Origin: a virus | Length of the DNA stretch: 64,000 nucleotides | Virus genome (UHGV): UHGV-0176771 | Direction: 5' to 3' (one strand) | Shown: piece by piece, positions 20,041 to 60,899 of the stretch | Numbering within the stretch: the stretch's first letter is position 1 | How the letters are laid out: each line of letters opens with the position of its first letter | Program-made: the position numbers and the translations under genes | The notes under the pieces: generated by a model | Database searches by the model: none | What the model was told of the DNA's origin: nothing | Seen by the model: only the letters and a program-made list of their open reading frames with translations

Positions 20041-20595
20041 ATGGCGATTATTATTTTTGGGAAAACAGCAAGCGGGAAAAGCAGAATTGTGAATGAGCTT
20101 GTGAAAAGAGGATATAAAAAGATTGTAACGACTACAACAAGACCAGCAAGAAAAGGTGAAGTTGACGGAATTGATTACAACTTTATTACCGATGATGAAT
20201 TTAAAGAGCTTATTAATACAAGATATTTTGCAGAGTGGAAGAAATATGACACAGTAGACGGAACGTGGTATTATGGTTCTCCGCTCGATGAAATATCCAG
20301 ATCTGATAACAAATCAATCGTGATTCTAACTCCGGATGGTTATAGAGATATCAAAGATGAGTTAGATGAACACATTTCTATTTATATATACGCAAATAAT
20401 AAGACAATTCGAAACAGATTATCCAAACGTGGAGATAAAAAAGAAGAAGCTGATCGTAGGATTTTACATGACAATAAAGATTTTAAAGGTGCGGAAGAAT
20501 TAGCAGATAGAATCTTTTATAACAACGACGGTAAAAATATCGATGATTTAGTAGATGAAATATTTGAATATTTAAAAACGAGAGAGGGAGAATAA
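20041..20595 (+). CDS. gmk: Guanylate kinase-like nucleoside monophosphate kinase
   Basis: P-loop GKTASGKS and TTTRPARKGEVDGIDYNF (guanylate kinase signature). Confidence 0.75.
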   Translation: MAIIIFGKTASGKSRIVNELVKRGYKKIVTTTTRPARKGEVDGIDYNFITDDEFKELINTRYFAEWKKYDTVDGTWYYGSPLDEISRSDNKSIVILTPDGYRDIKDELDEHISIYIYANNKTIRNRLSKRGDKKEEADRRILHDNKDFKGAEELADRIFYNNDGKNIDDLVDEIFEYLKTREGE

Positions 20596-21098: not shown

Positions 21099-23270
21099 AT
21101 GAAAGTAATTAAGAGAGATTGTACAGAGGCAAGATTTGAAAAGAAGAAAATTTATGATGCTATTATGAAAGCTATGAAAAATGGTAGTGGTATCATTAAG
21201 CCTAAAATTGCAGAATCTATTGCGGATGAAATTTATGAAGAAAATAAGGACAAATCAGATATAAGCATTTCTGAAATTGAATCGTTGGTATATGACAAGT
21301 TGATCACTAAAAAGCAAAGGCTAACGGCAAAAGCATATGAGGGATATAGAAGTATCCGAGAATTTCAAAGAGAAAATATGAATACAACAGATGAACAGAT
21401 CTCAGAGCTTTTGAGTGGATCAAGCGATTATTGGAATAATGAGAATTCAAATAAAAATCCAAAATTGCTCACAACTCAGAGAGATTATATGGCTGGGATT
21501 TTAAGCACGGATATCACAAGAAGGTTTTTACTTCCTCCTGAAATTGTACAAGCACATGATGAAGGGATGATACATTTTCATGATGCAGATTATTACGCAC
21601 AGAATGCAATTTCAAACTGCTGCTTGATTAATCTTGAAGATATGTTGCAGAACGGAACATGTATTAATAAGGTAACGATTGACAAACCACATAGGCTAAT
21701 TACTGCAACCACAATTGCAACACAAATCATAACTGCAGTTACGTCAAGTCAGTATGGGGGCGCTACGATTACATTAACACATTTAGCTCCGTTTGTAAGA
21801 GATAGCTTTAATATCTATATGGAGAAATATAAAAACAGAGGATTGTCTTATCAGCAATGTCTTGAATTTTCGAGAGAAGATATTAAAAAAGAAATTGCAG
21901 ATTCAGTACAGACCTTCAATTATCAGGTAAATTCTATGACGACAACAAATGGACAAAGCCCCTTCCTCAGCGTATTTATGTATATTGGAGAAACTGAAGA
22001 GTATAAAGAAGAACTTGCAATGCTTATTGAAGAATTTTTAAAGCAAAGAATCCAAGGATTAAAAAATGAAGAAGGCGTATATGTTACACAGGCTTTCCCC
22101 AAATTATTATACGTGTTAGAGCCATGTAATATTGACAAAGACGGAAGTTACTTCTATTTGACAAAACTGGCAGCAGAATGTACAGCAAAGAGAATGGTTC
22201 CTGATTATATTTCCGAAAAAATTATGCTTGAAAACAAGATTGATAAAAATGGAAATGGAAATGTTTATGGATGCATGGGCTGCAGAAGCTTTCTTACCAC
22301 ATACATTAACAAGTCTGGTAAACCGCAGTATTATGGACGGTTTAATCAAGGCGTTGTTACATTAAATTTAGTAGATATTGCATTGTCATCTGGAGGAGAC
22401 ATGGATTCGTTTTGGACGATTTTTGATGAAAGAACGGAATTGTGCCACAAAGCATTGCGTCTTAGACATGAAAGACTGGAGGGTACTTTATCAGACGTGG
22501 CACCTGTTTTATATCAAGACGGAGCATTTGCAAGACTTAAAAAAGGAGAGAAGATTGACGAGCTTTTGCATAATGGATATTCAACAATTTCTCTTGGATA
22601 CGCCGGGTTATACGAATGTGTAAAATACATGACAGGCAATTCTCACACTGACAATGGAGTCGGAACATCATTTGGATTGGAAGTTATGAGCAAGCTTAAT
22701 GATAAATGTAGTGAATGGAAAGGAAAAGAAAACATTGATTACAGTTTATATGGCAGTCCTATTGAATCAACAACATATAAATTTGCCAAATGTTTAAAGA
22801 AAAGATTTGGAGTGATTGATGGAATTACAGATAGAGACTATATTACAAATTCATATCATGTTCCTGTATTTGAAGAGATTGATCCGTTTGAGAAATTAGA
22901 GTTAGAGAGTAAATTTCAGAAGTTAAGTCCGGGTGGTGCAATCAGCTATGTAGAATGTGCAGATCTAACTAGAAATACAGATGTAGTAATTGAAATTATG
23001 AAATTTATTTATGAGCATATCATGTATGCGGAGTTAAATACTAAATCTGATTATTGCCAGGAATGTGGTTATGACGGTGAGATTAAAATTATTGATGAAG
23101 ATGGAGAACTTATCTGGGAATGTCCGAATTGTGGTAACAGAAATAAAGATAAGATGAATGTCACTAGAAGAACATGTGGATATATTGGTACAAATTTCTG
23201 GAATCAAGGAAGAACAGAAGAGATCAAAGAAAGATATGTTCATGTAGACGACCATGAAGCGGAGGTATAA
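21099..23270 (+). CDS. nrdD: Anaerobic ribonucleoside-triphosphate reductase NrdD (N-terminal ATP-cone, C-terminal glycyl-radical motif RRTCGYIG)
   Basis: ATP-cone start (VIKRDCTEARFEKKKI), Zn-ribbon CxxC pairs and Gly-radical motif near the C-terminus. 723 aa. Confidence 0.9.
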   Translation: MKVIKRDCTEARFEKKKIYDAIMKAMKNGSGIIKPKIAESIADEIYEENKDKSDISISEIESLVYDKLITKKQRLTAKAYEGYRSIREFQRENMNTTDEQISELLSGSSDYWNNENSNKNPKLLTTQRDYMAGILSTDITRRFLLPPEIVQAHDEGMIHFHDADYYAQNAISNCCLINLEDMLQNGTCINKVTIDKPHRLITATTIATQIITAVTSSQYGGATITLTHLAPFVRDSFNIYMEKYKNRGLSYQQCLEFSREDIKKEIADSVQTFNYQVNSMTTTNGQSPFLSVFMYIGETEEYKEELAMLIEEFLKQRIQGLKNEEGVYVTQAFPKLLYVLEPCNIDKDGSYFYLTKLAAECTAKRMVPDYISEKIMLENKIDKNGNGNVYGCMGCRSFLTTYINKSGKPQYYGRFNQGVVTLNLVDIALSSGGDMDSFWTIFDERTELCHKALRLRHERLEGTLSDVAPVLYQDGAFARLKKGEKIDELLHNGYSTISLGYAGLYECVKYMTGNSHTDNGVGTSFGLEVMSKLNDKCSEWKGKENIDYSLYGSPIESTTYKFAKCLKKRFGVIDGITDRDYITNSYHVPVFEEIDPFEKLELESKFQKLSPGGAISYVECADLTRNTDVVIEIMKFIYEHIMYAELNTKSDYCQECGYDGEIKIIDEDGELIWECPNCGNRNKDKMNVTRRTCGYIGTNFWNQGRTEEIKERYVHVDDHEAEV

Positions 23271-25799: not shown

Positions 25800-25807
25800 G
25801 TGATAAA

Positions 25808-25990
25808 ATGATTGAATTTGTTTTAGGGAATGTCATTCTATTTTTTCTATCTATTGTGGTTGTACATGCTCTGTTTAAATCAACAGGTGATACAATCGAT
25901 AAATATGACATTCCGTATTTTGTGATCAGTGTAGCGATTATTTATAGTTTGTCAGCACAATTTTATAATGTGTTTGCTGGAACGATTTAG
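25808..25990 (+). CDS. Small two-TM membrane protein (holin-like topology, unproven)
   Basis: 60 aa with two hydrophobic helices. Confidence 0.3.
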   Translation: MIEFVLGNVILFFLSIVVVHALFKSTGDTIDKYDIPYFVISVAIIYSLSAQFYNVFAGTI

Positions 25991-26317
25991 GGAACAACGG
26001 AGATATGGTAAAAAATATCCCTTGTAAAATTTTGTAGAATCATGATATACTGAATACAAAGGTATGATTCTATGTCAAAAGGCAAACACCATTTACTTCA
26101 AAAGGGCAAAACCGATTTTTGTCTCATAATTTTATAGCACAAATAGAATTAGACCTTGAAAAATGTATTTTTACATTTTCAGGGTCTTTTTTACTTTTAC
26201 AAAGTGGCTTAAAACCTAGGGAAATTGAGTGTTATTTCTGAATGAAAGTGCAATTTCATTCGGTTATAAAAGCCTTCATTTTTTATATTTGAAATCTGCG
26301 AAAGGAAAATCAACTTT

Positions 26318-26522
26318 GCCCTTTTTGGGAAAACGGATGTTGCCCCTTGACATATAGAAATTTAAAAATGCTGTTTTTGGGAAAACTATTTTTGGGAGAA
26401 AACAACGCAAATTCAACGTTTATTGGCATCTTCACTCTCCCAAAAATAAAGGATTTGGGGAAAAAATTTATCCCAAAAACGTTTTTGGGAGATTTTTGGG
26501 AGCATTTTTGGGAAAATCATGC
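26318..26522. repeat. Array of at least 9 copies of TTTTTGGGARAA-type motifs in both orientations, including a perfect 20-bp palindrome TCCCAAAAACGTTTTTGGGA (26471-26490) and a second interrupted palindrome (26439-26466); directly upstream of tnsA
   Basis: Read directly from the sequence. Candidate Tn7-like end (TnsB-binding repeats), operator cluster or origin iterons. Confidence 0.7.
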
Positions 26523-26552
26523 CTTAAAAATTCAGAAGGAGAATACAAGAAA

Positions 26553-26897
26553 ATGCGTAAAAAAAATTACAAGGGTCGATGTGAGAAGAGGACAATATCG
26601 AAAAGTAAAGATGTGTGCAGATTCTACGATCCAATTCAATCGAGTTTTGCAGAAATTCTTAACGCAGATCCAGACATTGAGGAAATTCGTTGCAATGTAG
26701 TTTTAGATGGAAAAGACACAGGCGAATATATGACAGATTTTCTTTGTATTAAAACAAACGGAGATATGCTTGTCCGTGAATGTGTCTATCGAAAATTTCT
26801 CACAAAACCTATGACAGTCAAATTCTTAGACATTAGCAAAGATTATTGGTTGAGACACGGTATTGAAGATTGGGGTGTTGTAATTGATGCAGAATAA
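26553..26897 (+). CDS. tnsA: TnsA-like endonuclease (short form; E, D and K catalytic residues recognisable)
   Basis: SSFAEILNADPDIEEIR and TDFLCIK ... ECVYRK align by eye to the Tn7 TnsA catalytic region (E63, D114, Q130/K132). AAGGAG RBS before ATG 26553. The longer ORF from 26496 begins inside the repeats. Confidence 0.5.
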   Translation: MRKKNYKGRCEKRTISKSKDVCRFYDPIQSSFAEILNADPDIEEIRCNVVLDGKDTGEYMTDFLCIKTNGDMLVRECVYRKFLTKPMTVKFLDISKDYWLRHGIEDWGVVIDAE

Positions 26898-28716
26898 TTA
26901 TTTATTAAAAAACAATGACGATATTATTCGAGTTTTGGATGTGCAGCATGGACAGTCTTTAATCATAGATTGCATTAAACTGTCTATGCCAAAGTGGATT
27001 CTTAACAATCAGATAGATTCATTTGTGCCCTTTTCTGAAAATGATTTGTCTGAAATAACAGGCATATACACACAAGATATGGAAGATTTTTCATCTAACA
27101 GTAGAAAATTTATTCATGAACATTTCTCATTAATTGCAAGTATTCTGCCATATATATCTGAACCACAGAAAAGAAATGAAGCCATAAATACTATTTCGGA
27201 AGAGAGAGGCGTCTCAAAAACAACTATAAGAAAATACTTATGTTTGTATTTAGCGTATCAAGATATGTCTGTATTCGCACCAAAAAAGAAAAATCGAAAA
27301 TTAGAACTGTCTACAGATGAAAAGAATATGAGATGGGCGTTAAATAAATTTTACTATACTAGGAAGAAAAATACTCTTAATACAGCTTATACAATGCTTT
27401 TAAAAGAAAAATACTGTGATACAAATGGAAAGTTATTGACACATCATCCATCATTTTATCAGTTCCGGTATTTTTATCGCAAGACAAAAAAACTGCAAAC
27501 CTATTATATCTCAAGAAATGGGATAAAAAATTACCAGAGGAATAACAGACCGTTGATAGGAGATGGTGTACAACAATTTGCTCCAAATGTAGGGATTGGG
27601 ATGTTGGACGCAACAGTATGTGATATATATTTGGTTGATAATTCAGGAAATCTAGTTGGAAGACCAATATTAACCACATGTATAGATGCGTATAGCAGCC
27701 TGTGTTGTGGATATGCATTAACATGGGAAGGTGGAATATATAGTCTAAAAAACTTGATGCTAAATATCATTACAGACAAAGTAGAATTGTGCAAGAAACA
27801 TGGAATTATTATAAGTAAGCAAGAATGGAATATTGATCAGGTTCCCGGAGTGATGATTACAGATAAGGGTAGCGAATATAAATCAGAAGTATTTGAACAA
27901 TTAACTGAACTTGGGATTACAATAACAAATTTGCCACCATATAGACCAGAATTAAAAGGTTCTGTAGAGAAGTTTTTTGATTTAGTACAAGGATACTACA
28001 AAGAATATTTAAAAGGTAAAGGAGTAGTTAATCCAGACTTTCAAGAGCGTGGATGTCATGACTATAGAAAAGACGCCTGCCTGACATTAGAAGACTTTGA
28101 AAAGATAATATTGCGTTGTATATTGTATTATAATTCACAACGCATTTTAAAGAATTTTCCATACACAGAAGATATGATAAAAAATAATATTCAACCATAT
28201 GCAAATACAATATTTGAATATGGCAAAAAACGTATCGGAGCAAACTTAATATCTGTAAGTTCTAAAAATATAATTTATTCAATGCTTCCGAGAATAACAG
28301 GGAAATTTTCGCGTCGTGGTTTGATTGTAAATAAAATGAGATATCACTGTGATGGATATACGGAAGAATATTTAAACGGCGATTATGTAAAAGTGGCATA
28401 TGATTCAAATGACGTTACCACAGTATGGGCTATTTTGAACGGTGAATATGTTCCGTTTAATATTATTGAAAATAGGTTCAATGGAATGGATATTACAGAA
28501 ACAGATGCATTGCTGCAAGAACAAAAAAGGTTGGTGGCAAAAGAAGAATATAATAACATGCAGTCGAAAATTGATTTGGCTAAATATATAGAGACGATTG
28601 CTAATAATGTATGTCGAAAGCAAGATACAAAAATTAAAAATGTTAAACAAACAAGGAAAAGAGAAACGTATCGCACACACATTGACCATATAAACGGAGG
28701 AGTCGATTATGAGTAA
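26884..28716 (+). CDS. tnsB: TnsB-like DDE transposase (Mu/Tn7 family)
   Basis: DDE triad context (LDATVCD, MITDKGSEY, KGSVEKFF). N-terminal HTH-like region. 610 aa. Confidence 0.85.
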   Translation: MMQNNYLLKNNDDIIRVLDVQHGQSLIIDCIKLSMPKWILNNQIDSFVPFSENDLSEITGIYTQDMEDFSSNSRKFIHEHFSLIASILPYISEPQKRNEAINTISEERGVSKTTIRKYLCLYLAYQDMSVFAPKKKNRKLELSTDEKNMRWALNKFYYTRKKNTLNTAYTMLLKEKYCDTNGKLLTHHPSFYQFRYFYRKTKKLQTYYISRNGIKNYQRNNRPLIGDGVQQFAPNVGIGMLDATVCDIYLVDNSGNLVGRPILTTCIDAYSSLCCGYALTWEGGIYSLKNLMLNIITDKVELCKKHGIIISKQEWNIDQVPGVMITDKGSEYKSEVFEQLTELGITITNLPPYRPELKGSVEKFFDLVQGYYKEYLKGKGVVNPDFQERGCHDYRKDACLTLEDFEKIILRCILYYNSQRILKNFPYTEDMIKNNIQPYANTIFEYGKKRIGANLISVSSKNIIYSMLPRITGKFSRRGLIVNKMRYHCDGYTEEYLNGDYVKVAYDSNDVTTVWAILNGEYVPFNIIENRFNGMDITETDALLQEQKRLVAKEEYNNMQSKIDLAKYIETIANNVCRKQDTKIKNVKQTRKRETYRTHIDHINGGVDYE

Positions 28717-29959
28717 AACTACGGAATCAATTTATAATTTACCACCTATTTTATCAGGAGAACGACTGATTTCGTCTTTGACTGTATTGCCAGAATATGA
28801 GCCATCAATTATTCATAAAAGCGAAACAGAACGTTTAATGGCGCTGTCAGATATATATAGAATATATATACCATCAAAAATGTCCCAAGAGATATATAGC
28901 AAATTGTATCTTTCATTAATGCGTTCATTGCAGAAGAAAAGGACAGATCCATTTGTTATGCAACAGCAACAAAACAATTTTAGAATGATTCAAAAGAAGT
29001 TTTATAATGGTGGAATTATAGGTGGGTCAGATTCTTTTTCTATTATTGGTAATTCTGGAATAGGGAAAAGTGCATCTATATTTAGAGCAATTGATTTAAT
29101 AACAGACAGTACAGTCATAGAGTTTGAAAATCCATATGCAAAGGTAATACCGTCTCTGGTGGTGCAATGCCCCTTTGACTCTTCTGTAAAAGGACTTCTA
29201 TTGGAAATATTAAGAAAAGCTGATGAACTTCTTGGCTCAAAATACTATGAAAATGCGATCAAAATAAAGGCTACAACAGATACATTAATAGGTTGTGTCA
29301 GTCAAATTGCCTTGAACAATATCGGATTGTTAATTGTCGATGAAATACAAAATATATGTAATTCAAAAAATGGCAAAACTTTAGTTGGTAGTATAACGCA
29401 ACTGGTCAATAATTCCGGTATAAGTATTTGCTTTGTAGGAACTCCGGAATGTAAAAATTTTTTTGACAAAGCAATGCATCTTGCAAGGAGAACAATGGGG
29501 TTAGAATATACGTCTCTTGACTTTGATGTTGAATTTACCATGTTTTGTAAAATTATTTTTCAGTATCAGTACATGGAAGAAAGAATTGAAATTACTGATA
29601 AGATTATTAAATGGCTATACGACCACTCGTCTGGGAATGTTTCTATTGTTATAGCGCTTCTACATGACGCACAGGAGATAGGCATTCTGTCCGGACATAA
29701 ATCATTAAGTATTGATCTTTTTGAAATAGCATATAAACAAAGAATGTCTGTTTTACACGATTATATAAATATTCCAGACAAACAAAAATTAAAGCTGTGC
29801 AGTAAAAAAGATAAGCAAATTATCGAACGAGATAGTACAAAAGAAATAAACGATAATTTAAAAATATCTGATATTGTACAGGAATCGAAACAAAACAATA
29901 TTAATATTGTTTTATTGCTGAAAAAATACAATTTAATCGCCGAGGAGATATCGCTATGA
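28709..29959 (+). CDS. tnsC: TnsC-like AAA+ ATPase
   Basis: Walker A GNSGIGKS and Walker B LLIVDEIQ. Position after tnsB. Confidence 0.8.
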   Translation: MSKTTESIYNLPPILSGERLISSLTVLPEYEPSIIHKSETERLMALSDIYRIYIPSKMSQEIYSKLYLSLMRSLQKKRTDPFVMQQQQNNFRMIQKKFYNGGIIGGSDSFSIIGNSGIGKSASIFRAIDLITDSTVIEFENPYAKVIPSLVVQCPFDSSVKGLLLEILRKADELLGSKYYENAIKIKATTDTLIGCVSQIALNNIGLLIVDEIQNICNSKNGKTLVGSITQLVNNSGISICFVGTPECKNFFDKAMHLARRTMGLEYTSLDFDVEFTMFCKIIFQYQYMEERIEITDKIIKWLYDHSSGNVSIVIALLHDAQEIGILSGHKSLSIDLFEIAYKQRMSVLHDYINIPDKQKLKLCSKKDKQIIERDSTKEINDNLKISDIVQESKQNNINIVLLLKKYNLIAEEISL

Positions 29960-31566
29960 TTGCTTATGTGCCAACAATGTATCCAGATGAAACTGTGTAT
30001 AGCTTACTTACAAGAATATATGAAAAAAGTGGATATCTATCATATGCTCATGCAAAAAATGATTTTTTTGTTAATCCAAAAGAGGGAATTGAATTTTTGT
30101 TCTTAAATAAGTTAAGCAAAGAACTCATAGATATTATCACTCGGAATCAAACGCTAGATGACGTAATAAAGAATCACACGCTATATAATTATTATGGAAG
30201 ATATCTTGGAGTTGAAAAAAGAAAAGATGCATACAATTCTCTGTGCAACATGACAGGAGATTATTTCCGTATTTTCGTATTAAATAAAAAATCTTCAGAG
30301 GAAACTTATCTCCGTTATTGTCCCATGTGCGTAAGTGAAGATAAACATATTTATGGGGAAACATATTGGAAACGTACACATCAAATACCAGAATTAGAAG
30401 TGTGTCCTGTCCATGGGTGCAAATTATTAAATAGTAATGTTTCAAATAATAAACATAGGGCTATGTCATTTATCTCTGCAAATACAGCCGTGAAAGACTT
30501 AACCATAATTCAAGGATCAGAACAAGATATAAAACTGGCAGAATATATAGGTGCTTCAGTGTGCGAAAATATAGAATACAATGACGATTTATTGATCGGT
30601 AAATATCTCACATCCAAGTTGGAAGGTACAAAATATTTATCATCATGTGGGAATGGAATCAATCGAAAATTATTATTTCAGGACTTAACAAATTTTTATA
30701 GTGGGTGTAAATATGTAATTCAAGAAATAAATCATTTATCTAAGATTTTTCATGGGAAAAGAACAAAGCCTTTTGAAATTATTCAGATTGCTATGTTTTT
30801 AAAAATCCCATGTAATGAATTAGCTAACGCACAGAATCCAGACAAGACTCCATCAGAAAAATTTGAGCAAAAGGTTATTAACATGCTCCGGGACAAAACA
30901 ATGGAAGAGGTGTCTTCTAAATTAAATATTTCAAAATCCGCCATTAAAATTATTATACGAAAACATAACGGAGTAGCAGATAATTACACAAAATACGAAA
31001 TACAAGAATGTAGGAAAATATGGACTGATACCATAAAAGAATATCCAAACTGTTCTTTTCAAGAGATTTGTATGTACTCTAAATATAGATTAAGTTTACA
31101 ATGGTTAAGAAGAAACGATAAAGAATGGACAGACAAACATTATCCACGTAAACAAATAAATTCTGTCAGGCAACAAAATATCGACTTATTAGACAAAAAA
31201 TATCTGTCACAAATTGAAAATGTAATTCAAGAGTATAGGGAGCGCCAAGGTGAAATGCCAAAACGAATAACGATAAACGCAATTAGCAACTATATTGGTA
31301 TCCCTGGTAGACAATTATATTATATGAAACAATGCAGAGCTGTTATAGAAAAATATGCAGAAACAGACGAGGAATTTCGAGTCAGAAAAATATTATGGGC
31401 TGTTGATATGTTACAAAGAGATAATAAGAAGTTGACTTTCAATCAGATAAGAAAACTGACACATATTCATTCAGGGCACTATTACAAATGTCGTCCTCTT
31501 CTTGTAGATACGATAGGGGAGGAAACAGTTCTTCGTATTGATCCAAATACTTCTATTGTGAGTTAA
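29956..31566 (+). CDS. tnsD: TnsD/TniQ-like target-site selector
   Basis: TniQ-type N-terminus (PDETVYSLLTRI) and zinc-finger CPMCV ... CPVHGC. Position after tnsC. Confidence 0.7.
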   Translation: MIAYVPTMYPDETVYSLLTRIYEKSGYLSYAHAKNDFFVNPKEGIEFLFLNKLSKELIDIITRNQTLDDVIKNHTLYNYYGRYLGVEKRKDAYNSLCNMTGDYFRIFVLNKKSSEETYLRYCPMCVSEDKHIYGETYWKRTHQIPELEVCPVHGCKLLNSNVSNNKHRAMSFISANTAVKDLTIIQGSEQDIKLAEYIGASVCENIEYNDDLLIGKYLTSKLEGTKYLSSCGNGINRKLLFQDLTNFYSGCKYVIQEINHLSKIFHGKRTKPFEIIQIAMFLKIPCNELANAQNPDKTPSEKFEQKVINMLRDKTMEEVSSKLNISKSAIKIIIRKHNGVADNYTKYEIQECRKIWTDTIKEYPNCSFQEICMYSKYRLSLQWLRRNDKEWTDKHYPRKQINSVRQQNIDLLDKKYLSQIENVIQEYRERQGEMPKRITINAISNYIGIPGRQLYYMKQCRAVIEKYAETDEEFRVRKILWAVDMLQRDNKKLTFNQIRKLTHIHSGHYYKCRPLLVDTIGEETVLRIDPNTSIVS

Positions 31567-31570
31567 AAGG

Positions 31571-31630
31571 TAAAAAAATGGGTAGAAGAGGAATTAACCT
31601 CAACTACCCATATCATTATTATTTAATTCT
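31571..31630. terminator. Bidirectional intrinsic terminator between convergent tnsD and endolysin (stem TGGGTAG/CTACCCA with inner GAGG/CCTC, A-tract upstream and T-tract downstream)
   Basis: Hairpin and flanking A/T runs read from the sequence. Confidence 0.45.
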
Positions 31631-32365
31631 TTTTGCTGCAGCTTCAAGTCTAATATGCCACGGAGCATCTTTTGTAAATTGATAACTCGGCATTTCTTTA
31701 CCGTTGTTGTCTCTGTAAATTTTTGTCAGAATATTTAATTCGTCCGGATGACCAAGAGGATGTACGGACTGTCCATCAAAATAGTAAACACAATTTTCTC
31801 CCTTTACACTATATAAACATTGCATAGTCGTTTCTCCTTTCTTTTCTGAAACATTATTTGGATTTCCATTACTTACAGAACCACCCATAAGTTCTCTGAT
31901 TCGTTTAACAAAATATGCCTTTGTTGCCGCAACACCACCATGTATTTCTACTGACCTATGCGGACAAGCAGTAGGGAATACTTCTTGATGTAGGCGGATC
32001 GTGTTTTCGTTTGGTGTAATTCCATATTGCTTACACTTCTCAGCACACCACTGCAAAGCGCGTTCCTCGTTCTGTTTAAAGGTATTTAAATCTCCCATAC
32101 TCTGACAAACTTCGATACTCAGGTAATTTATATTGCCGTCTGTATTTCCGCAATGCCATGCACAGTTTGCATCATCCTCTACCTGCCTAACACCATCACT
32201 GCCGCAATATGCGTGAGCGAACCCTTCTTCTTTGTTCTTACTACCATTTGCTAAAGAATTAGCCCAATAAGCAGCATTTAAAGAACTGCCACCTGCATCA
32301 TTGTGAATAAAAATACCGACAGGATTTCTACCTCTCCTGCCGGCAACGCCTCCACATATACTCAT
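31619..32365 (-). CDS. Endolysin: N-acetylmuramoyl-L-alanine amidase (PGRP/Amidase_2 type) with C-terminal cell-wall-binding region
   Basis: Amidase_2 motifs (GIFIHNDAGG, zinc-ligand H/C pattern). AAGGAAGGTGA RBS. Confidence 0.8.
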   Translation of the reverse strand: MSICGGVAGRRGRNPVGIFIHNDAGGSSLNAAYWANSLANGSKNKEEGFAHAYCGSDGVRQVEDDANCAWHCGNTDGNINYLSIEVCQSMGDLNTFKQNEERALQWCAEKCKQYGITPNENTIRLHQEVFPTACPHRSVEIHGGVAATKAYFVKRIRELMGGSVSNGNPNNVSEKKGETTMQCLYSVKGENCVYYFDGQSVHPLGHPDELNILTKIYRDNNGKEMPSYQFTKDAPWHIRLEAAAKRIK

Positions 32366-53515: not shown

Positions 53516-53978
53516 AATTTGAACCCCAGCCTTTTATTAGCCACATACTGGGTAGCGGAAATAATTTAACCCCGTACCTTCTTTTTGACTGCTGATATAT
53601 ACGGTCACAGCAAATAATAGAATAGAAGAGTCACTGGTGATGACCTTTCTATTCATTTAAGGACTTTCTTTCAGAACATAGTTCCTAGTTAGGCTATGGG
53701 AAATCCTCGCACCTTTGTAAATCTCCATGTAAACCGGTTCCTAACCCGGCGTACACTTCAAAGATTATTTATAGCAGTCATATTACGCTGCATCACACCA
53801 GATTTTACTTAATTAGACAGCGTCCTGATAAAGCAGGCTATTCTATGGTAGTTTATCGTCCCCCAATAGAGAAAGTGAGCCGTCTCTTTCACTTTTACTT
53901 TTGGATATCCAAGGCATCTCTCCTATATTCATATTCTCTTAATCACAAGCGGCAGGATAATAAATCCCACCGCTTATT

Positions 53979-56900
53979 TTAAAATGATCTGTGTACACCA
54001 GCTCTTTTGGCTTCTTTGGTAAATTCCTTTGTGACTCCTTCAATTACTTTCTTCATGCCAGGATAGGTTTCCTTGTCAATACTTCCTTGAACTTCTATCA
54101 TCTTGTCATAGTAATTATTTGTTACATTAGGTCTTTCACCAAGGCTGTTTGCAATGTTCAGTGAACTATAAATATCATCTTTGTGTTCACCAAGATCCAT
54201 AATGTTCTTTGACAGTCTTGCATTTACAACAGCATCACCATAAGTAATTGTCGTAGCTGTTCCTGTCAATGCACCACGCCTAACCATCATTTCAGGATTG
54301 TTTCCTTCATTGATACGAACAATTTCTGAACCATTTACAAATTTCTTTGTTCCAGACGCATAACCTCTTAACTGGTCAAGACTTACCCAACCAAGGTCAC
54401 GCTCTCCGAAACGAGGTGTTCTACTAATATGATATTTCTTCTGTGCCCAATTAGCATTATTAACACTGGTAATATATACTTCCTGACCACGCATTTCATT
54501 TCCAGCAGGGGACTGACCGTCAGAAGAGTAGTAGTAATCTCCACTTGCGAATATTACTTTGTCTCCAACATTTGGTACTCCGTCTCCGCCACCATTATTA
54601 CTCGGTGGTGGTGTAGTTGGTTTTGGTGGTTCTGGTTTTGGTGTGACAGTTACTGCACAACTATTTGTTGAAGTAGCTCCTCCACCATCTGTTGCAATTG
54701 CACTAATGGTAGTGCTACCTGCTTTGACAGCATGAACAGTTCCATTTGCAACTGTAGCAACATTTGGATTTGATGACACCCACTGCAAGCTTTTATTTTT
54801 TGCATCATTTGGTCTGATTGTTGCCGAAACTGTGCCTGTAGAACCTTCCTGTATAGAAAGTGTCCCCGGACTTAATGTAATTTCTGCAACTGGTCTGTTT
54901 GATAAGTCTGGATTCTTACTGATATCACCTTGAATCTGGTCATTCTTATCCTGTGTTGTTCCGTTCTGAATCTGACCGGTATTCACATCCGTCCAATCAT
55001 CCGGTCTATAATTAGGAGCATTAGTCATACTATTGTCAACTTGATCTTGTGCTCCATTACTTGTACCAAGATTTCCAAGATTATTGGATAAATCTTTATT
55101 CGGTACAAATCCTGTACTGTTAATGATTTGCTGAATTTTGTCATAAGCCTGTTGGTAGTTTCCAACAATATTTCCAAGCATTTGAGATATTACTTGTTCC
55201 TGCTTTTCAGCATTTCGAGTAACATCATATAATGTTTCCTCCAGCTGCTTATCGAGATCCTCACTCAAACCGTCCAGACCATTCTGGTGAACATCATATT
55301 CATGGTCATCACGGGTGTCTTGCATTTCTTCTTCGGCATCTCTAAGTTGTGCTTTTAACCTCTTTAATTCAGCCTGTGCACTCGCATTATTCGTGCCTTC
55401 GAGTGCAGCAATCTGAGCTTTCAATGTATTCACATCTCTAGCCTGTTTACGCAGAGTCTTATTGTAATCAGCATTTTTCTTTTTGATATCCAATAATTCC
55501 TTCTGCTTATCAATCGATTTTTGAGCAACTTCATTCTCTTGCTCAAGCATCTTTGTATACAGATCAACAATAGAATCTTTGTAGTCTTCTACAATATTAA
55601 CAGAGCTTGAAATCTGATTGAGAAATTCTTTTTGCTGCTCCTTATATTCACTTGTTGAGATATTCCCGTTCTTTAAATCCTCATCAAGCTTCTTCAATGC
55701 CTCTTGATAATTCTTAATCTGTTGTTTCGCAGCATTCATACCCTGACTAATCAAAGCCAAATTTGCAATACCATCAAGTGTTAATCCACCATTTTTCCCA
55801 ACAAAAGCATCACTATTTAAAAGTCCTCTTAAATCATCTGTCTGGTCAATCAGATCACCTAATGCCTCCTGTCCATCAAAGAACGGTTGCCATCTTACTT
55901 CCCAGATTTTATTTTTGAGGTCTTCAATATTATTCATTGCATCAAAGATAGCGTCATCGAGCTTTTCCATCTCTTCCGCATATTCATTATATTTGTCAGA
56001 ACCGACATCATATTTTGCCTGATCTCGTAATAGCTCTTGTCTCTTATTATAATTCGCTTGAATCTGTGCATTGGCATTATCAAGTTGCGCCTGTAAATCT
56101 TTTTCAGATATTTGTTCGCCTTTTGACTCTGTAAGGTCTGTGTTGTTCTCAAGACGTTTTGCAGTTCTGTCTAATTCATCGATTGCCTGTTGCAATTTCA
56201 ATAAATCAAGTTCTCTTAGTTGGTCTTGCAATTCGATCAATGTTGTTTCAGCTTCAGCAGCTTCTTGTCTGAATCCGTTTAATGCAGCTTGAGCTTCAAA
56301 CCATTCCGTTGAGTATTCAGCCATATACCCATTTGCCATGAGTTTATTGATTTCATCTTGATATGATTTAATCTGTGACTGTAATTTACCTGCAACATCC
56401 TGTTGATTTTTAATAGATTCTTGCAGAGAGCCATACATATTGTCGGAATATGCAGATTCTCCTTTTGCAGCCGCTAGTTCACGTAATGCTTCCTGATAAT
56501 CTACAGCAGAGGACTCAATTCCAGTCATCATATCGATGTAATCTTCAATATTATCCAATGCTGTCTGCGCCAGTTCACTCTGTTTGTTTAAGAGGTCATC
56601 GTACTGTTTATTACAGTCTACGAGCTTATCATAATAAGACTGTAGCTCACTGATTATTTTTTGAGTATCATCATCGTATTTTGAAATATCCATAGACCCG
56701 TTCTGAATCTGATGGACGATAAGTGGGTTTATTCCACTCTGTCGCACAATAGAATCAAAATGACTTTGATAAGTCCCAATTGCTTGCTGAGTCCTATTCA
56801 GTAGTTCACTGTTCTTAGACATTGCCTCATACAGTTTCTGTTGCTTATCTGGGAGGTGTGCGATACGCTCCATTTGACTCATCAATAAATCATACTGTGA

Positions 56901-59900
56901 TTCTAGCCGTTGAAATAACACCTCAACCCAGTCTGTATATCCAGATACTGCTTCTGATAATTTCTCTGCCGCTTCGGATGTATCAGATGCTGCTCTTGAA
57001 AGGTTATTTGATGCGGAGTTAAGATTGTTGGAAGTAGAAGAGTTCCCAATTCCAGAAATTCCTGATTGACTTCCAGATCCTCCAATGCCAAAACTTCCGC
57101 CACCACTTCCATTTGCAAAAGCAGTTCCAGAAGCGTAAGCTCCACCCATGAAAACTTTGGCACGAGAATTTACATATCCTTTAGAAAGTAGATCTCGTGT
57201 CTGAAGGTGGTTGAAGATTATGTCTCCACGTTTTAGATTTACGAATTCTGCACCATTGTCTCCAATGGTTGTGAATTTTCCTCCGCGTACAAGAAGTTCT
57301 GTTCCTAGTTCACCAACCAAAGCACGCTCATCTTTTTTTACACCCCAATCACCTTGGTCAAATGCGTGACCAGATTTAGGATTTACAGTTCCATCTGCAT
57401 GAGCAGTTCCGTTAAAACGCGGCATCATCAGTCTGCCATTTCCTACGTTTGTACCAGTACTTACTGTTTCAACTCTATGTGTATAAATATAAGTATGTGC
57501 AGCACTTCCGTCTAAACCTGACAGCATTCCACTTACTCCAGAAATTACCGGTGTAGCATGATCGCTAGCCTCGATATTTGTATTTGATTCATCAGGGATA
57601 CTTTCGACACTTCCAGTTACATTTTCTGCCGTTAATGAAGCAGAAGCATCTGTTGCAGTAATAACAGCTGTCTTTTGTTCCGGTGTTAAAGAATTCCAAA
57701 GACCAATCACATATGTAGCTTGATCTTGTGCAGTCATTGATGTAAATTTCGGATTTGCGCTCAAACCGTTCCATAAAGTAATAATGCCTGTTGCATGGTC
57801 TTCTCCGATTAATGGAACAGATTTTTGTATGAGTTCTTTCTTATTAATATCATCAATTACAGGAGTAGCGTTATCTACGGCATCTAAATGTACAGGTACG
57901 CCAGGAAGGTTAAGACCGTGTATTGCCTTTTCCATTACGAACTGAAGATCATTATCTACTTCATAAGCAATTGTTCCATCCGCAGTTATAACAGGCTTCA
58001 ATGCTTTTTCTACACCATCTATCTCAGCAGTATAAGTAACTGTTCCGTCTTCATCCTTAACGGCTTTAACTACAGACTCAACATTAGAAACATCTGCATT
58101 GTATTTAATAGTCTGATTTGCTTGAAGATTATTTAATGCTGTGTTCATTTCTTCTGTAGAATTGAATGTTTTAACTTCAATTTCCGGTGAAAGATTCTTT
58201 ATATCTTCGAGCACTTCTTCTTTGTTTTTTACTTTTAGTTCTGCATCAAGTTCAATGCCGTTTTCTTGTGCTAATTGACGAATTTGATCTTCCATCAAGC
58301 TAACCACTTCGTCTGTGTTTTCCCCATAGGCATTTTCTCTGAGAATCCTATCACGTTCTTCTTTTAAACTACTAATTGCTGTTTTTGCCTGTTCAACTTG
58401 TTTTGCATAATCATCTGCAGATTTTGTTATGAGTTGACCAAGATTAGCTTGGGTTTGCTGTAAGTCAGATTCAAGTCCTTTAATCTTTTCGCGCTGCTGA
58501 TCGATTGCTGTACTGTCTGCCCCAGTTGCTTCGAGCCTCGCCAATTCCGCTTTCGCATTCACGAGTTCTGTGCTTAAGTCAGATACACGTTTTGCACCCT
58601 GTTCAACAGAACCGACAAAGTTATTACTGAAGCCATAATCTTCAAGACGACCAAACATGTCCATAAAAAATTCAAAACCTACGCCCATATTTGTCGCAGC
58701 TTGCTCTAAATCTTCTATATTATATGTCCATTGCTCTGTTCCGTCAGCAACTGTCTTAAATGCCATTCCTTTGCTTTCAAGATCAGTTAAGAAATTATGT
58801 ACGCCAGATGCATCTTCTGTCAGATAGCGAGCAGCCTTAGCGTAATTTTCAGCAAAGTTTACAGCATCTTCTGCACCAGTAGGAGAGAAGTAGGCGGCTC
58901 TCTTTTTAAAGTCGTCGGTTCCGATCAACCCTTTATCAAACATTTCTTTTGCTTGCTCAAGATATGATTTTGCCTGAACATAGTCATCACCGGCATTTTT
59001 AGTTTCGTCAGCAGCACTAATTGCTTCGAAATTTTTATTTGCTTCTAAGTTAATACCAGTCGAAGCAAGTGCTTTTGCATTTTGGATCTCAGATTTTAGT
59101 TGGTTAAATGTGCCCGTAAATTTATCATTTACAACTAAGTCATAACCTTTTTCCAAATCTTCTAATGACAAATCTTTTGCTGCATCGCCATACAGTTCTG
59201 TTAGCTTTGCTAGTTGATCTTCAGACTCTTCAATTACTTTGTCAAAACCAAGAGATTTTTTGAACGCCTTTTGTGCTTTGCTATCATTAGGAAATGCTTT
59301 TTCAAGAGCTGTGTCAATTGTCGATATGTATTCTCCAACATTCAACATAGATGTATCCAGAGTCAACATATCTTTAATTGCCTTTTGTCCTTCTGGTTTC
59401 ATATCTGCCATAGGCTGAATAATTTCGCCATACATGAAAGACATAAAGTCACCACCATAGTCTTTAGCCACGGTTTCGTAATCAATATTATCAACATTAC
59501 CTAAGAATGCATCTTGAATTGATTTATCTAATTTTGTAAAAGTATCTGAAGTTTGCAGATACTGTCCGAGTGACTCTCCCATTTTAGACCATTGTTCTTC
59601 GATAAGAAGTTTTGTTGCAGCTATACTTTTTTCTGCTTCTGCATTTTCAACAGTCATTGAATTTATGGCTTCACTTTTATATTTTGACAGTGTATTTTTT
59701 ATCTCATTTGCAACATTTTTATCGAATCCTGATGTTGATATTGTCACATTGCCTGCATCATCAATAGCCTCTTGCATTGCAACGCCATTATCACTTAAAA
59801 TTTTTGCGATTTCTCTCTGAGCTTTCGCCCTATTTTCTCCATATGATTTTAAGCCTAATGTTATATCACCAGAAGAAGATAATTCGTCAGCATCAATTTC

Positions 59901-60899
59901 CATATCTGCCATCGCTTTATCATTTTTGTCAATGGTATTTTGTAGAGTTTTAATTTTGTCTTCATATTCCTCGATTTGAGCAACTGTGCCTTCGTAATTA
60001 TCCTGCAGACCTTCTCCAATCTTAACATTAGCAGATAGCATCTGCGCGTCATATAAACTCTTCAGACTTGCTGCAGCAGAATCTGCATTGCTACCAAGAT
60101 TAAGAATAGCATTTCCTTGTGCGTCATAACCTTCTACGAGAGATGGGAACTGTGACGCTAACTGATTACTAATATCCAGATACTGTTGATATTCCTCAGA
60201 AGACAGTCCTTTGTTTTTATTCGTTACAGTATCTACATTCTTGCTTAATTCACTGTATTTCTTTGCGACATTCTCTATCGCATCACCTGTCGTTTCAATA
60301 TCATCTGCATTATCTGCAAATGACTGACCAAGTGTGTCCAGAGTATTCTTGCCTTTAGAGAACTCAGCAAATGTCTCATCGATAGAGCTTTTCGCTTCTT
60401 TTCCTTTGGCAATCATTTTTTCTTGACGATGAATGTAGTCATCAATCATAGTAATAACGCCTTGAATCGCTACACCGGCAAGCATACCGATACCTGCGTT
60501 TAAAAGACTTGAACCGATCATTCCTCCTACGTTTTTAAGAGTAGAAGTTACTTTACCAAATTTTGATGTGGATTTAGAAGCTGACTCGATATGCGTATCC
60601 ATATCTTTAATGTTCTTCTTCCCAGAATCAACGTCACCTAAAAATGTAATAAGTTCTTTGTCTGCGTATCCCATAGATTTTGCCCAATCAACCCATTTCT
60701 CAGGTTGATTATCGCCTAATCCTGAAATAACTTTATTTGCTTTTAAAAACTCTTCACTTATTTGTGGAGTTTTATTTTTGTATGCATCAAATAAGCTGAA
60801 CCCAGTATCCTTATCATAGTTGAAAACCGTATAGTTTTGATGTACACTTATATTAAATACTTGCAATATTTTATATAAGGAAGAAAAATATGAGTTCAA
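53979..60899 (-). CDS. Tail tape-measure protein (2306 aa; coiled-coil rich, internal TM segment, Big_2 Ig-like domain, Gly-rich tracts)
   Basis: Size, heptad-rich composition, position upstream of Dit and Tal. True start may be internal. Confidence 0.55.

What the first reader, a model, noticed from the sequence alone, without database searches (positions are those of the whole stretch)
26318..26522. Dense repeat and palindrome array (core TTTTTGGGARAA) immediately upstream of tnsA
Within 200 bp there are at least nine copies of the motif in both orientations. They include a perfect 20-bp palindrome TCCCAAAAACGTTTTTGGGA, a second spaced palindrome TCTCCCAAAAATAAAGGATTTGGGGA and three tandem direct copies ending at the tnsA RBS. 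The region sits between the replication/nucleotide arm and the Tn7-like operon. Candidate roles are the tnsA-proximal transposon end with TnsB-binding sites, an operator cluster controlling tns expression, or the phage replication origin (iterons). A spurious ORF (26347..26700) is simply the translation of these repeats.
Basis: seen in the sequence. Interest (0 to 1): 0.6.

Follow-up and report, generated by a model that had tools for sequence, protein, structure and literature searches.

The report
Repeat array inside Tn7-like phage end
The repeat cluster is real and is a hallmark control region next to the right end of a Tn7-like transposon whose cargo is the whole gut phage: the phage inserts itself behind a host gene by transposition rather than with an ordinary integrase.

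Summary
Eight of the window's nine exact TTTTTGGGA copies lie in 26322-26513, in both orientations.

The array is not the transposon terminus and not a phage origin. The true terminus is 300 bp upstream: a 280-bp non-coding cassette (26073-26352). It is bounded by TGTC...GACA, and each arm carries two GGCAA-type sites.

Public contigs of 99%-identical relatives show both states of the phage:
- **Replicative junction**, as in the window: dUTPase, promoter P, cassette, array, tnsA'.
- **Prophage**: host gdhA, ACAAA, cassette, array, tnsA'BCD, phage genes, promoter P, cassette, ACAAA, host.

The empty site occurs in 28 gut metagenome contigs. So the whole phage (over 100 kb) is the cargo of a Tn7-like element, with a 5-bp target duplication.

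The same array, in the same position and layout, precedes tnsA' in 64 of 74 chromosomal relatives from Clostridia and Negativicutes. There the motif is 167-fold enriched.

Best reading, which is inferred: an element-internal operator or accessory binding platform, probably for TnsB. It would control tnsA'BCD expression and use of the adjacent cassette end.

I rate it a new variant of a known kind, with interest mainly in the transposing phage.

The parts
26022..26072 (+). Promoter P. It has -35 TTGTAA (26022-26027), an 18-nt spacer and an extended -10 TG-a-TATACT (26043-26051). The -10 sits inside a palindrome, GAATCAT 26037-26043 / ATGATTC 26064-26070. P reads into the cassette. In the prophage it sits at the far (left) end of the element, next to cassette copy 2.
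   Evidence: 9 of 12 matches, with TG. The same promoter-then-TA-then-TGT arrangement is seen in phage lineages B and C and at the left end of chromosomal elements L044 and L020. The 98% identity block shared with L001 starts at 26036.
26073..26352 (.). The 280-bp non-coding end cassette, which is the actual transposon end or ends. It starts 5'-TGTCAAAAGGCAAAC and ends GTTGCCCCTTGACA-3'. The arms 26073-26119 and 26306-26352 are an inverted repeat, each with two GGCAA-type sites about 23-25 bp apart. It contains an intrinsic terminator (26153-26193) and a conserved hairpin (26240-26261).
   Evidence: Inverted repeat I1. End motifs at 26073 and 26341. Host gdhA flank joined exactly at TGTC in L113, L108 and L147. 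Host Y flank joined exactly after GACA in L091. Contig breaks fall 54-55 nt inside both termini. Fold z-score is -3.76 for 26058-26196.
26353..26373 (.). 21-bp linker TATAGAAATTTAAAAATGCTG between the inner cassette terminus and the first array site. It is nearly invariant within lineage A.
   Evidence: A spacing of about 24 nt between the cassette end and the first site is kept across the family.
26374..26516 (.). The array proper. Sites on the plus strand: 26374-26385, 26389-26400, 26453-26464 (degenerate), 26482-26493, 26493-26504, 26505-26516. Sites on the minus strand: 26435-26446 and 26468-26479. It includes the 20-bp palindrome 26471-26490 and a conserved non-motif spacer at 26399-26424.
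   Evidence: Footprint. Family-wide architecture. Enrichment of 17.4 versus 0.10 per kb.
26322..26333 (+). A motif copy that lies inside the cassette's right arm and overlaps a GGCAA-type end site. It is not part of the conserved array.
   Evidence: It is not conserved in L146, L151 or L152, which read TTTTGAGGA.
26534..26897 (+). RBS AGAAGGAG (26534-26541) and tnsA' (ATG 26553 to stop 26897, 114 aa). This is a stand-alone TnsA-type nuclease-fold domain without the C-terminal TnsC-binding domain.
   Evidence: Pfam PF08722, weak. AF2 pLDDT 89. Foldseek best hits are Tn7 TnsA 1T0F and 1F1Z, TM 0.82. Residue mapping.
26887..28716 (+). tnsB, a DDE transposase of 609 aa.
   Evidence: PHROG transposase 6.6e-31, Pfam Mu-transpos_C and rve. 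Precomputed PF27135 HTH_TnsB on the 99% relative. 181 relatives in cellular genomes.
28709..29959 (+). tnsC / tniB-like AAA+ regulator.
   Evidence: PF05621 TniB 1.7e-10 and AAA_22.
29956..31566 (+). tniQ/tnsD target selector (536 aa).
   Evidence: PF06527 TniQ 8.4e-19 and PF15978 TnsD 9.6e-16.
31580..31609 (.). Terminator hairpin (GGGTAG...CTACCC) closing the tns module. The 98% identity block shared with L001 ends at 31612.

Best explanation
**Shown.**
- The window is the replicative (joined-ends) form of a temperate gut phage of more than 100 kb that is itself the cargo of a Tn7-like transposon.
- The transposon ends are the two termini of a 280-bp non-coding cassette (26073-26352, TGTC...GACA).
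- In the prophage the cassette is present twice, as direct repeats. The order is: gdhA, ACAAA, cassette, array, tnsA'BCD, phage genes, promoter P, cassette, ACAAA, host.
- The TTTTTGGGR array (26374-26516) is a fixed, family-wide cis element of the backbone. It starts 21 bp from the inner (ACA) terminus of the tnsA-proximal cassette and ends 36 nt before tnsA'.

**Inferred.**
- The array is a cluster of short binding sites for a protein encoded by the tns module, most likely TnsB.
- It would work as an operator or roadblock that sets the level of tnsA'BCD expression. The only strong promoter upstream is P. P is collinear with the operon only in the joined-ends form and is moved about 100 kb away on integration.
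- It would also work as an accessory platform that tells the machinery how to treat the adjacent cassette terminus: inner versus outer end, or an enhancer-like role.

**Integration route.** Integration itself is either a programmed cointegrate, or cut-and-paste of a linear or concatemeric form that carries a cassette at each end. In the cointegrate route, replicative transposition of the cassette from the circular genome duplicates the cassette.
For: **Array is real and non-coding.**. Tandem copy number is 3 in the window and 4 in 99% relatives, a 10-nt net indel.

**Array belongs to the tns module.**
- In 74 chromosomal loci of Clostridia and Negativicutes the core motif occurs at 17.4 per kb in the 280 bp before tnsA', against 0.10 per kb elsewhere. 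64 of 74 loci have at least 4 copies.
- One layout recurs: cassette end, about 24 nt, one forward site, about 60 nt, two reverse sites, two tandem forward sites.
- Phage lineage C keeps the layout, but every copy reads TTTTTAGGAA. That is concerted change, as expected for a protein-binding site.
- In the lineage A footprint the first two sites, the central spacer and the last two tandem sites are invariant, while surrounding sequence drifts.

**True ends and prophage state.**
- L113, L108, L111, L115 and L147: gdhA stop, 13 nt, then TGTC.
- L091: P, cassette, GACA, then ACAAATCATAC....
- Exact empty site in 28 metagenome contigs, with L118 read through. This gives a 5-bp duplication, ACAAA.
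- A complete small chromosomal relative, L044, has the same two-cassette structure with P at the far end.

**Replicative junction.** Window, L109, L110, L112, L146, L151.

**Proteins.** tns protein identities are.

**Promoters.** No sigma-70-like promoter is detected between the cassette terminator and tnsA'. P is the only strong one.

**Motif resemblance.** The array core GGG(A/G)AA resembles the G-rich core of the end sites GGGCAA. This is compatible with one DNA-binding protein reading both.
Against: - No binding data exist. The binder could be TnsA', TniQ/TnsD or a host factor.
- The array motif is 9-13 bp at 11-12 bp spacing and in both orientations. That is unlike the ~20-22-bp, same-orientation TnsB sites known from Tn7.
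- The G-to-A change in lineage C is not clearly mirrored in that lineage's end sites.
- A strong intrinsic terminator lies between P and the array, so read-through from P is an assumption.
- A weak extended -10-like TGGGAAAAT in the last site could be the real tns promoter.
- The two integration routes are not distinguished. TnsA' keeps D62 and E76, but it has Gln at the Tn7 E63 position and Val at the K132 position. That neither proves nor excludes nuclease activity.
Confidence: 0.55

Rival explanations
1. The array is a functional part of the right transposon end in the strict sense. On this reading it consists of extra TnsB end-binding sites required for transpososome assembly, which give the tnsA-proximal end its 'right-end' identity. 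It is not mainly a regulator.
For: - It sits within about 300-450 bp of the right terminus in the prophage and is found only at that end.
- The two cassettes are identical, so any left/right asymmetry must come from flanking internal DNA such as this array.
- The orientation of insertion relative to the target gene is constant across relatives.
- The motif core resembles the end-site core.
Against: - It lies outside the TGT...ACA cassette.
- Sites are in both orientations, are short, and are spaced 11-12 bp.
- In a cointegrate model it lies outside the mobile unit altogether.
Confidence: 0.2
2. The array acts at the RNA level. As part of the tnsA' 5' leader, its forward and reverse copies would form hairpins that act as attenuators or occlude the RBS, or its GGA-containing repeats would titrate an RNA-binding protein.
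For: - The palindrome followed by a T-run scores as terminator-like on both strands.
- Short stems that could sequester the Shine-Dalgarno sequence are conserved just after the last site.
- The forward copies lie on the sense strand.
Against: - The fold of 26353-26560 is not clearly better than shuffles: z = -1.92, with 6 of 200 shuffles as good.
- In relatives the reverse and forward copies are 16-24 nt apart, with no compensatory pattern.
- Tandem direct copies at a helical-repeat spacing fit DNA binding better.
- No Rfam family matches.
Confidence: 0.1
3. The array is bound by a host or phage regulator, for example the lysogeny repressor or a global regulator, and links transposase expression to cell or phage state. 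It would not be bound by a tns protein.
For: - Promoter P has its own palindromic operator-like element, so external regulation of the region is likely.
- No paralogue of the TnsB N-terminus exists in the window, so a Mu-like repressor/transposase pair is not evident.
Against: The array is conserved in small chromosomal elements of many genera that carry no phage genes. The binder must therefore be encoded by the tns module or be universal in Clostridia and Negativicutes. The concerted motif switch in lineage C argues for a co-evolving, element-encoded binder.
Confidence: 0.1
4. The array is the phage replication origin (iterons).
For: It consists of repeated short motifs in an AT-rich intergenic region at the junction of the two genome arms.
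Against: The same array precedes tnsA' in chromosomal Tn7-like relatives, one of them a complete ~10-kb element. None of the 80 cellular loci encodes a homologue of this phage's replication or other genes in the flanks fetched. It always travels with tnsA'.
Confidence: 0.02

Closest known systems
Tn7 right end (Tn7R) with its TnsB sites next to tnsA (own knowledge of the Tn7 literature: Craig laboratory work, 1990s)
   Same: - The repeat-rich region lies immediately upstream of tnsA.
- The element inserts with this end next to the 3' end of a conserved gene, chosen by a TnsD-type protein.
- It makes a 5-bp target duplication and has TGT/ACA termini.
- TnsB binding near the tns promoter is thought to autoregulate.
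   Different: - Here the end-type sites sit in a separate 280-bp cassette that carries both a TGT and an ACA terminus and is repeated directly at both ends.
- The array has a different, shorter motif in both orientations and lies outside that cassette.
- TnsA is a 114-aa single domain.
Bacteriophage Mu and Mu-like transposable phages (MuA/MuB, attL/attR, operator-enhancer)
   Same: - The whole phage genome is the transposon.
- It has a DDE transposase with a Mu-type C-terminal domain, plus an AAA+ partner.
- An internal cluster of sites near one end, overlapping the regulatory region, could play the operator/enhancer part.
   Different: - Integration is site-specific, downstream of gdhA through TniQ/TnsD, and not random.
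- The phage has its own replisome (DnaB, primase, PolIII-alpha-like polymerase, ligase). Nothing indicates replication by transposition.
- A joined-ends form exists.
- The ends are direct repeats of one cassette.
- No repressor paralogue of the transposase N-terminus was found.
[quoted passage not shown]
   Same: Replicative transposition from a circular donor gives target, Tn, donor backbone, Tn, target, with the duplication outside. This is exactly the prophage structure seen here. TnsA' departs from Tn7 TnsA at two of the catalytic positions.
   Different: There, cointegrates are by-products and the tns genes lie inside the element. Here the mobile unit would be a 280-bp non-coding cassette and the cointegrate would be the intended product. 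This is not demonstrated.
Junction promoters of circular IS intermediates (IS911, IS30, IS2) and lambda int/sib retroregulation (own knowledge)
   Same: A strong promoter is collinear with the recombination genes only when the ends are joined, and is separated from them on integration.
   Different: Here a terminator and the array lie between promoter and operon. The effect on expression is untested.

Membership tests
Tn7-like transposon (TnsA-TnsB-TnsC-TniQ/TnsD) | DDE transposase TnsB | tested here: met
   PHROG transposase 6.6e-31. Pfam Mu-transpos_C 1.8e-4 (just above cut-off) and rve, weak. PF27135 HTH_TnsB on the 99% relative.
Tn7-like transposon (TnsA-TnsB-TnsC-TniQ/TnsD) | AAA+ regulator TnsC/TniB and target selector TniQ/TnsD in one operon | tested here: met
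   PF05621 1.7e-10, PF06527 8.4e-19, PF15978 9.6e-16. The genes overlap.
Tn7-like transposon (TnsA-TnsB-TnsC-TniQ/TnsD) | TnsA endonuclease with an intact catalytic site and a C-terminal TnsC-binding domain | tested here: inconclusive
   The fold matches Tn7 TnsA (TM 0.82, E 2e-6). The protein is only 114 aa and has no C-terminal domain. D114 maps to D62 and Q130 to E76, both invariant, but E63 maps to Q29 and K132 to V78 (the hhalign pairwise score is weak).
Tn7-like transposon (TnsA-TnsB-TnsC-TniQ/TnsD) | TGT...ACA termini with several subterminal repeated sites | tested here: met
   TGTC at 26073 and GACA ending at 26352, with two GGCAA-type sites per arm. The same is seen in relatives.
Tn7-like transposon (TnsA-TnsB-TnsC-TniQ/TnsD) | 5-bp target-site duplication and orientation-specific insertion just downstream of a conserved gene | tested here: met
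   ACAAA lies on both sides, 13 nt after the gdhA stop. The empty site is found in 28 contigs. Relatives sit after guaA, a ppdK-like gene and a gpmI-like gene.
TnsB end-binding sites of a Tn7-type end (as a description of the array itself) | Sites lie inside the terminal ~150 bp, all in one orientation relative to the terminus, about 20-22 bp long, and are present at both ends | tested here: not met
   The array starts 21 bp beyond the cassette's inner terminus, has both orientations, has a 9-13 bp core at 11-12 bp spacing, and is present only on the tnsA side.
TnsB end-binding sites of a Tn7-type end (as a description of the array itself) | Bound by TnsB | not testable with these tools
   This needs a footprint or EMSA.
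Iteron-type replication origin | Linked to, and co-inherited with, a replication initiator or replicon | tested here: not met
   The array is co-inherited with tnsA' in chromosomal relatives, one of them a complete ~10-kb element. No homologue of this phage's genes, replication genes included, lies within the fetched flanks of the 80 cellular loci.
Mu-like transposable phage | Genome replication by repeated replicative transposition; random integration; host DNA on virion ends | tested here: not met
   Integration is site-specific at gdhA in independent samples. The phage has its own replisome genes. Joined-ends contigs lack host DNA (window). Virion ends were not examined.

The most novel reading that the evidence does not exclude
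A gut phage of more than 100 kb uses a Tn7-like TnsA'BCD machine as its integrase in an unprecedented way. The only DNA that 'transposes' is a 280-bp non-coding cassette carrying both ends. Replicative transposition of that cassette from the circular phage genome into the site behind gdhA fuses the whole phage into the chromosome as a programmed cointegrate bounded by two cassette copies.

Promoter P drives the tns operon only in the circular form. The TTTTTGGGR array next to the cassette would be the operator/enhancer that couples transposase level and end use to that topology. Excision would be recombination between the cassettes, or outer-end cleavage.
Probability: 0.3. Interest if true: 0.85.

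Novelty: new variant of a known kind. Interest (0 to 1): 0.7.

Why it matters
- **A third integration route for tailed phages.** It adds to tyrosine/serine integrases and Mu-type random transposition: site-specific integration by a Tn7-like TnsB/TnsC/TnsD machine. Both att junctions, the empty site and the joined form are available in public data.
- **A very large cargo.** The system naturally moves more than 100 kb to one defined chromosomal site. This is of direct interest for large-cargo insertion tools.
- **Unusual cis parts.** It is a compact system with a 114-aa TnsA and well-delimited cis parts: the cassette with both termini, the array, and the junction promoter.
- **Annotation.** The array is a diagnostic marker for this widespread Clostridia/Negativicutes family. 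It explains mis-annotated 5'-extended 'tnsA' ORFs in public records.

Tried and rejected
- **Search of GenBank phages.** A near-identity DNA search found nothing useful. A tblastn with TnsB gave only 23-25% hits.
- **Rfam.** No family matches in 25800-26700. Only a drum RNA is found elsewhere in the window.
- **Cassette as a MITE or an RNA stem.** I first read the 280-bp inverted-repeat-bounded segment as a possible MITE, or as a long-range RNA stem. I dropped this once host junctions showed that its termini are the element's ends.
- **The 245-bp 'insertion' in L001.** I first took the segment after GACA as a real insertion. It is the host flank of the occupied gdhA site, joined across an N. 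This is most likely a scaffolding artefact.
- **Resemblance to Cas9 tracrRNA or repeats.** TTAAAATAAGGCT occurs in L006 and the array has CCCAAAAC-like ends. I dismissed this: the spacing is wrong, no cas gene is present, and the match is not conserved.
- **TnsA' against PDB by sequence.** A profile search found no TnsA hit. The fold search did.
- **Mu-like repressor paralogue of the TnsB N-terminus.** None is present in the window.
- **Second cassette within 10 kb in cellular relatives.** Found only in L044, plus a tandem pair in L020. Most elements are longer than the flanks fetched.
- **Promoter in the array.** None reaches the scan threshold.
- **Literature.** Four full-text searches found no report of a TnsABCD-integrating phage. 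This shows absence from that library only.

Full report
**1. The observation**

The stretch 26318-26522 does hold a dense cluster of one motif.
- TTTTTGGGA occurs nine times in the 64-kb window, and eight of these lie between 26322 and 26513. Shuffles give a mean of 1.3 and a maximum of 4.
- With the 12-mer and up to two mismatches, the sites on the plus strand are at 26322, 26374, 26389, 26453 (degenerate), 26482, 26493 and 26505. Those on the minus strand are at 26435-26446 and 26468-26479.
- The 20-bp perfect palindrome is at 26471-26490.
- The three tandem copies, at 11-12-bp spacing, end 36 nt before the ATG at 26553.
- The ORF through the repeats exists but is not a gene. In 99%-identical relatives the tandem block has four copies instead of three, a net 10-nt indel. 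Public gene calls nevertheless extend 'tnsA' through the array to 179 aa.

**2. Surroundings**

The window is AT-rich (34% GC) and phage-like.
- The plus-strand arm carries replication and nucleotide-metabolism genes. These include a DnaB-like helicase, primase, RecJ-like exonuclease, a large DNA polymerase, NAD-dependent ligase, NrdD and dUTPase.
- The minus-strand arm runs from the endolysin (31619-32365) through tail genes and a 2306-aa tape-measure-like protein.
- Between the arms lie four overlapping genes:
  - a 114-aa TnsA-like protein (26553-26897);
  - TnsB (26887-28716);
  - TnsC/TniB (28709-29959);
  - TniQ/TnsD (29956-31566).
- The 114-aa protein models confidently (pLDDT 89). Its best structural matches are Tn7 TnsA, 1T0F and 1F1Z, with TM 0.82. 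It is the nuclease-fold domain only.

**3. The array is a family trait of the tns module**

- *Phage relatives.* IMG/VR holds phage relatives in three lineages with TnsB about 52% identical. All have a promoter, an inverted-repeat-bounded segment, a motif array and tnsA' in the same order. In lineage C every copy of the motif reads TTTTTAGGAA instead.
- *Cellular relatives.* A scan of one genome per species found 181 TnsB relatives (53-67% identity) in chromosomes of Lachnospiraceae, Oscillospiraceae, Ruminococcus, Sporomusa, Pelosinus, Propionispira and others. None of these loci carries phage genes of this type, yet they have the array.
- *Enrichment.* In 74 loci the core motif is found at 17.4 per kb in the 280 bp before tnsA', against 0.10 per kb elsewhere. 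64 of 74 loci have four or more copies.
- *Layout.* The layout is the same throughout. About 24 nt after the end of the cassette comes one forward site. About 60 nt with a conserved non-motif block follows. Then come two reverse sites and two (sometimes three) tandem forward sites, and then the tnsA' RBS.
- *Footprint.* Within lineage A, at 77-79% TnsA' identity, several parts are invariant while the rest drifts. They are the linker, the first two sites, the central block 26399-26424 and the last two tandem sites. The copy at 26322 is not conserved.

It excludes a phage origin.

**4. Where the transposon end really is**

- *In cellular relatives.* The sequence next to the target gene starts with TGTCG. 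Examples are guaA in Sporomusa, Pelosinus and Propionispira, and a ppdK-like gene in Lachnospiraceae and Anaerotruncus. The terminus is followed by GGGCAA-type sites, a terminator, and an inverted copy of the same sites ending in CGACA. Only then comes the array.
- *A complete small element.* L044 (Anaerotruncus sp. G3) shows the full structure:
  - the ppdK-like gene;
  - cassette 1;
  - the array, tnsA'BCD and cargo;
  - a promoter, followed by TA;
  - cassette 2;
  - host DNA.
  The two 249-bp cassettes are direct repeats, 94% identical, with compensatory changes in the terminator stem. They are flanked by ATTTT and ATTTC.
- *In the window.* The homologous cassette is 26073-26352: TGTCAAAAGGCAAAC ... 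GTTGCCCCTTGACA. Its arms are 73% complementary over about 47 nt (inverted repeat I1), and each arm has two GGCAA sites. It is preceded by promoter P (26022-26051) and followed, after a 21-bp linker, by the array.

**5. The phage is the cargo**

The nearest TnsA' homologue (99%) is a hypothetical protein of the isolate Lachnospiraceae bacterium 2_1_58FAA. Contigs that encode it fall into two classes.

- *Integrated class (L108 from the isolate assembly, L111, L113, L115).* The gene order is host metH, alaS, rpsU and gdhA; then the cassette, array and tnsA'BCD; then the endolysin and phage structural genes. The junction reads gdhA-TAA-ACGATATTACAAA|TGTCAAAAGG.
- *Joined class (L109, L110, L112).* The order is as in the window: dUTPase, P, cassette, array.

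Three further results complete the picture.
- The other prophage junction is in IMG/VR contig L091: dUTPase, P, cassette...CCTTGACA|ACAAATCATAC....
- The predicted empty site ACGATATT-ACAAA-TCATACAAAAATAATC occurs exactly in 28 human-gut metagenome contigs. L118 shows gdhA, the empty site and the same downstream flank.
- A 79% relative shows both states again, L146 joined and L147 integrated at gdhA.

The results follow directly. The whole phage lies between two direct copies of the cassette. The target duplication is the 5 bp ACAAA. The insertion point is 13 nt after the gdhA stop.

Several viral contigs stop 54-55 nt inside the cassette from either terminus. This is the signature of an assembly-graph repeat whose boundaries are exactly TGT and ACA. 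One contig of 122,814 bp has both of its ends in the one cassette.

The 245-bp 'insertion' after GACA in L001 is the host flank joined across an N. I read it as a scaffolding artefact.

**6. How integration may work (inferred)**

Two routes give the observed prophage.

- *(a) Programmed cointegrate.* The circular genome carries one cassette. TnsB nicks both cassette termini and joins them to the gdhA site, and replication duplicates the cassette. The product is X-ACAAA-[C]-array-tns...P-[C]-ACAAA-Y. This is the known outcome when Tn7 lacks TnsA cleavage and in V-K CASTs (own knowledge; PMC8188705 abstract).
- *(b) Cut-and-paste, or direct integration, of a linear or concatemeric form with a cassette at each end.* This resembles LTR-type integration. 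The joined form would arise by recombination between the terminal repeats.

TnsA' does not decide between them. Aligned to Tn7 TnsA (sequence checked against 1F1Z; hhalign, which is weak but agrees with the fold match), the mapping is:

| Tn7 TnsA | TnsA' | Status in the TnsA' family |
|---|---|---|
| D114 | D62 | invariant |
| Q130 | E76 | invariant |
| E63 | Q29 | invariant Gln |
| K132 | V78 | not Lys |

The C-terminal domain is also absent.

**7. What the array most likely does (inferred)**

The array is backbone DNA that always stays attached to the inner ACA terminus of the tnsA-proximal cassette, at a fixed distance, and directly precedes the tns operon.

- No sigma-70-like promoter is detected between the cassette terminator and tnsA'. 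The only strong promoter is P.
- P is collinear with the operon only in the joined form. In the prophage it points out of the far end.
- A cluster of short sites between P/terminator and the RBS fits a protein-binding operator. The sites are partly palindromic and partly tandem at about one helical turn, and they changed in concert in one lineage.
- The array is conserved in small elements whose only shared genes are tnsA'BCD. The binder is therefore probably one of those proteins, with TnsB the obvious candidate. The array core GGG(A/G)AA also resembles the end-site core GGGCAA.
- The same occupancy could mark this terminus as 'inner', or act like Mu's operator/enhancer.
- An RNA-level role is less likely: fold z = -1.92.

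None of this is shown. It needs footprinting and reporter or transposition assays.

**8. Comparison and novelty**

- The module passes the defining tests of a Tn7-like element: TnsB, TnsC, TniQ/TnsD, TGT/ACA termini with subterminal repeats, a 5-bp duplication, and orientation-specific insertion after a conserved gene. The state of the TnsA active site is left open.
- The array itself does not meet the definition of Tn7-type TnsB end sites, on position, orientation, length and one-sidedness. It is best called a family-specific subterminal array.
- The system works like Mu in that the phage is the transposon. It is not Mu-like in target choice, replication or end structure.
- Four full-text searches found no description of a phage integrating through TnsABCD, or of this two-cassette end structure. 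That shows absence from the held library only.

I rate it a new variant of a known kind. The array alone is of moderate interest. The transposing phage it marks is the notable result.

Noticed in passing
window 26022-26196 (+): Promoter P plus the first 120 nt of the cassette up to the terminator would give a small RNA of about 135 nt containing the TGT-end sites. Its fold z-score is -3.76 and it matches no Rfam family. Its 5' part is complementary to the cassette's right arm (26306-26352), so it could pair with any transcript that reads through into the tns leader. In L044 the two cassette copies differ by compensatory changes in the terminator stem.
   Followed up: partly
window 53656-53766 (-): A drum RNA (RF02958) matches at 64.7 bits, above the gathering score of 43. 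It lies just downstream, in the direction of transcription, of the 2306-aa tape-measure-like gene (53979-60899, minus strand).
   Followed up: no
L001 2805-3049 (IMG/VR 7000000098_000017); compare window 26352/26353: An apparent 245-bp insertion exactly after the cassette's GACA is in fact the host DNA downstream of gdhA, starting with the duplicated ACAAA. It is joined to the array side across an N. This is probably a scaffolding artefact of a sample that held the prophage.
   Followed up: yes
L113 5730-5790 and L108 10110-10160, versus window 26482-26516: The tandem block has four copies in 99%-identical relatives and three in the window, which suggests slippage. Public gene calls (P0002, 179 aa) start tnsA' at an ATG inside the array region.
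   Followed up: yes
L020 8950-9490 (same contig as L012): Two cassettes lie in tandem, separated only by TGGT, and sit between a promoter-P-like flank and the array of a second tns element 26.7 kb downstream of the first. This looks like repeated insertion at one ppdK-like site (a tandem array).
   Followed up: partly
window 21099-23270, versus L109 5054-7479, L110 and L112: NrdD is one 723-aa ORF in the window. In close relatives it is called as two ORFs (407 + 320 aa) separated by about 240 nt, which suggests an intervening element such as an intron.
   Followed up: no
window 20054-20065 (+): This is the only TTTTTGGGAAAA copy outside the array region. It lies just inside the start of ORF 20041-20595, a guanylate-kinase-like gene in relatives. 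It is isolated and probably chance.
   Followed up: no
window 26296-26310 and cassettes of L043/L044 (for example L044 9391-9410 and 9273-9288): Each half of the cassette contains an extra, inverted pseudo-terminus. Examples are CACCATGGAGTAGGGGCA facing TGCCCTACGACATGGTG, and CCGACATAG about 56 nt from the TGT end. Each end is therefore itself a small inverted-repeat unit. In cellular relatives the right-hand repeat extends 5-7 nt beyond the ACA terminus into the backbone (TGGTGAT).
   Followed up: no
L154 5904-6437: A relative carries an HNH homing-endonuclease-like gene (NUMOD4, HNH_3) next to a shortened endolysin, directly after the tns module.
   Followed up: no
window 26520-26545 and relatives (consensus GTTCCC..GGGAGG): A short stem that could sequester the tnsA' Shine-Dalgarno sequence is conserved in position, though not in sequence, after the last array site.
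   Followed up: no
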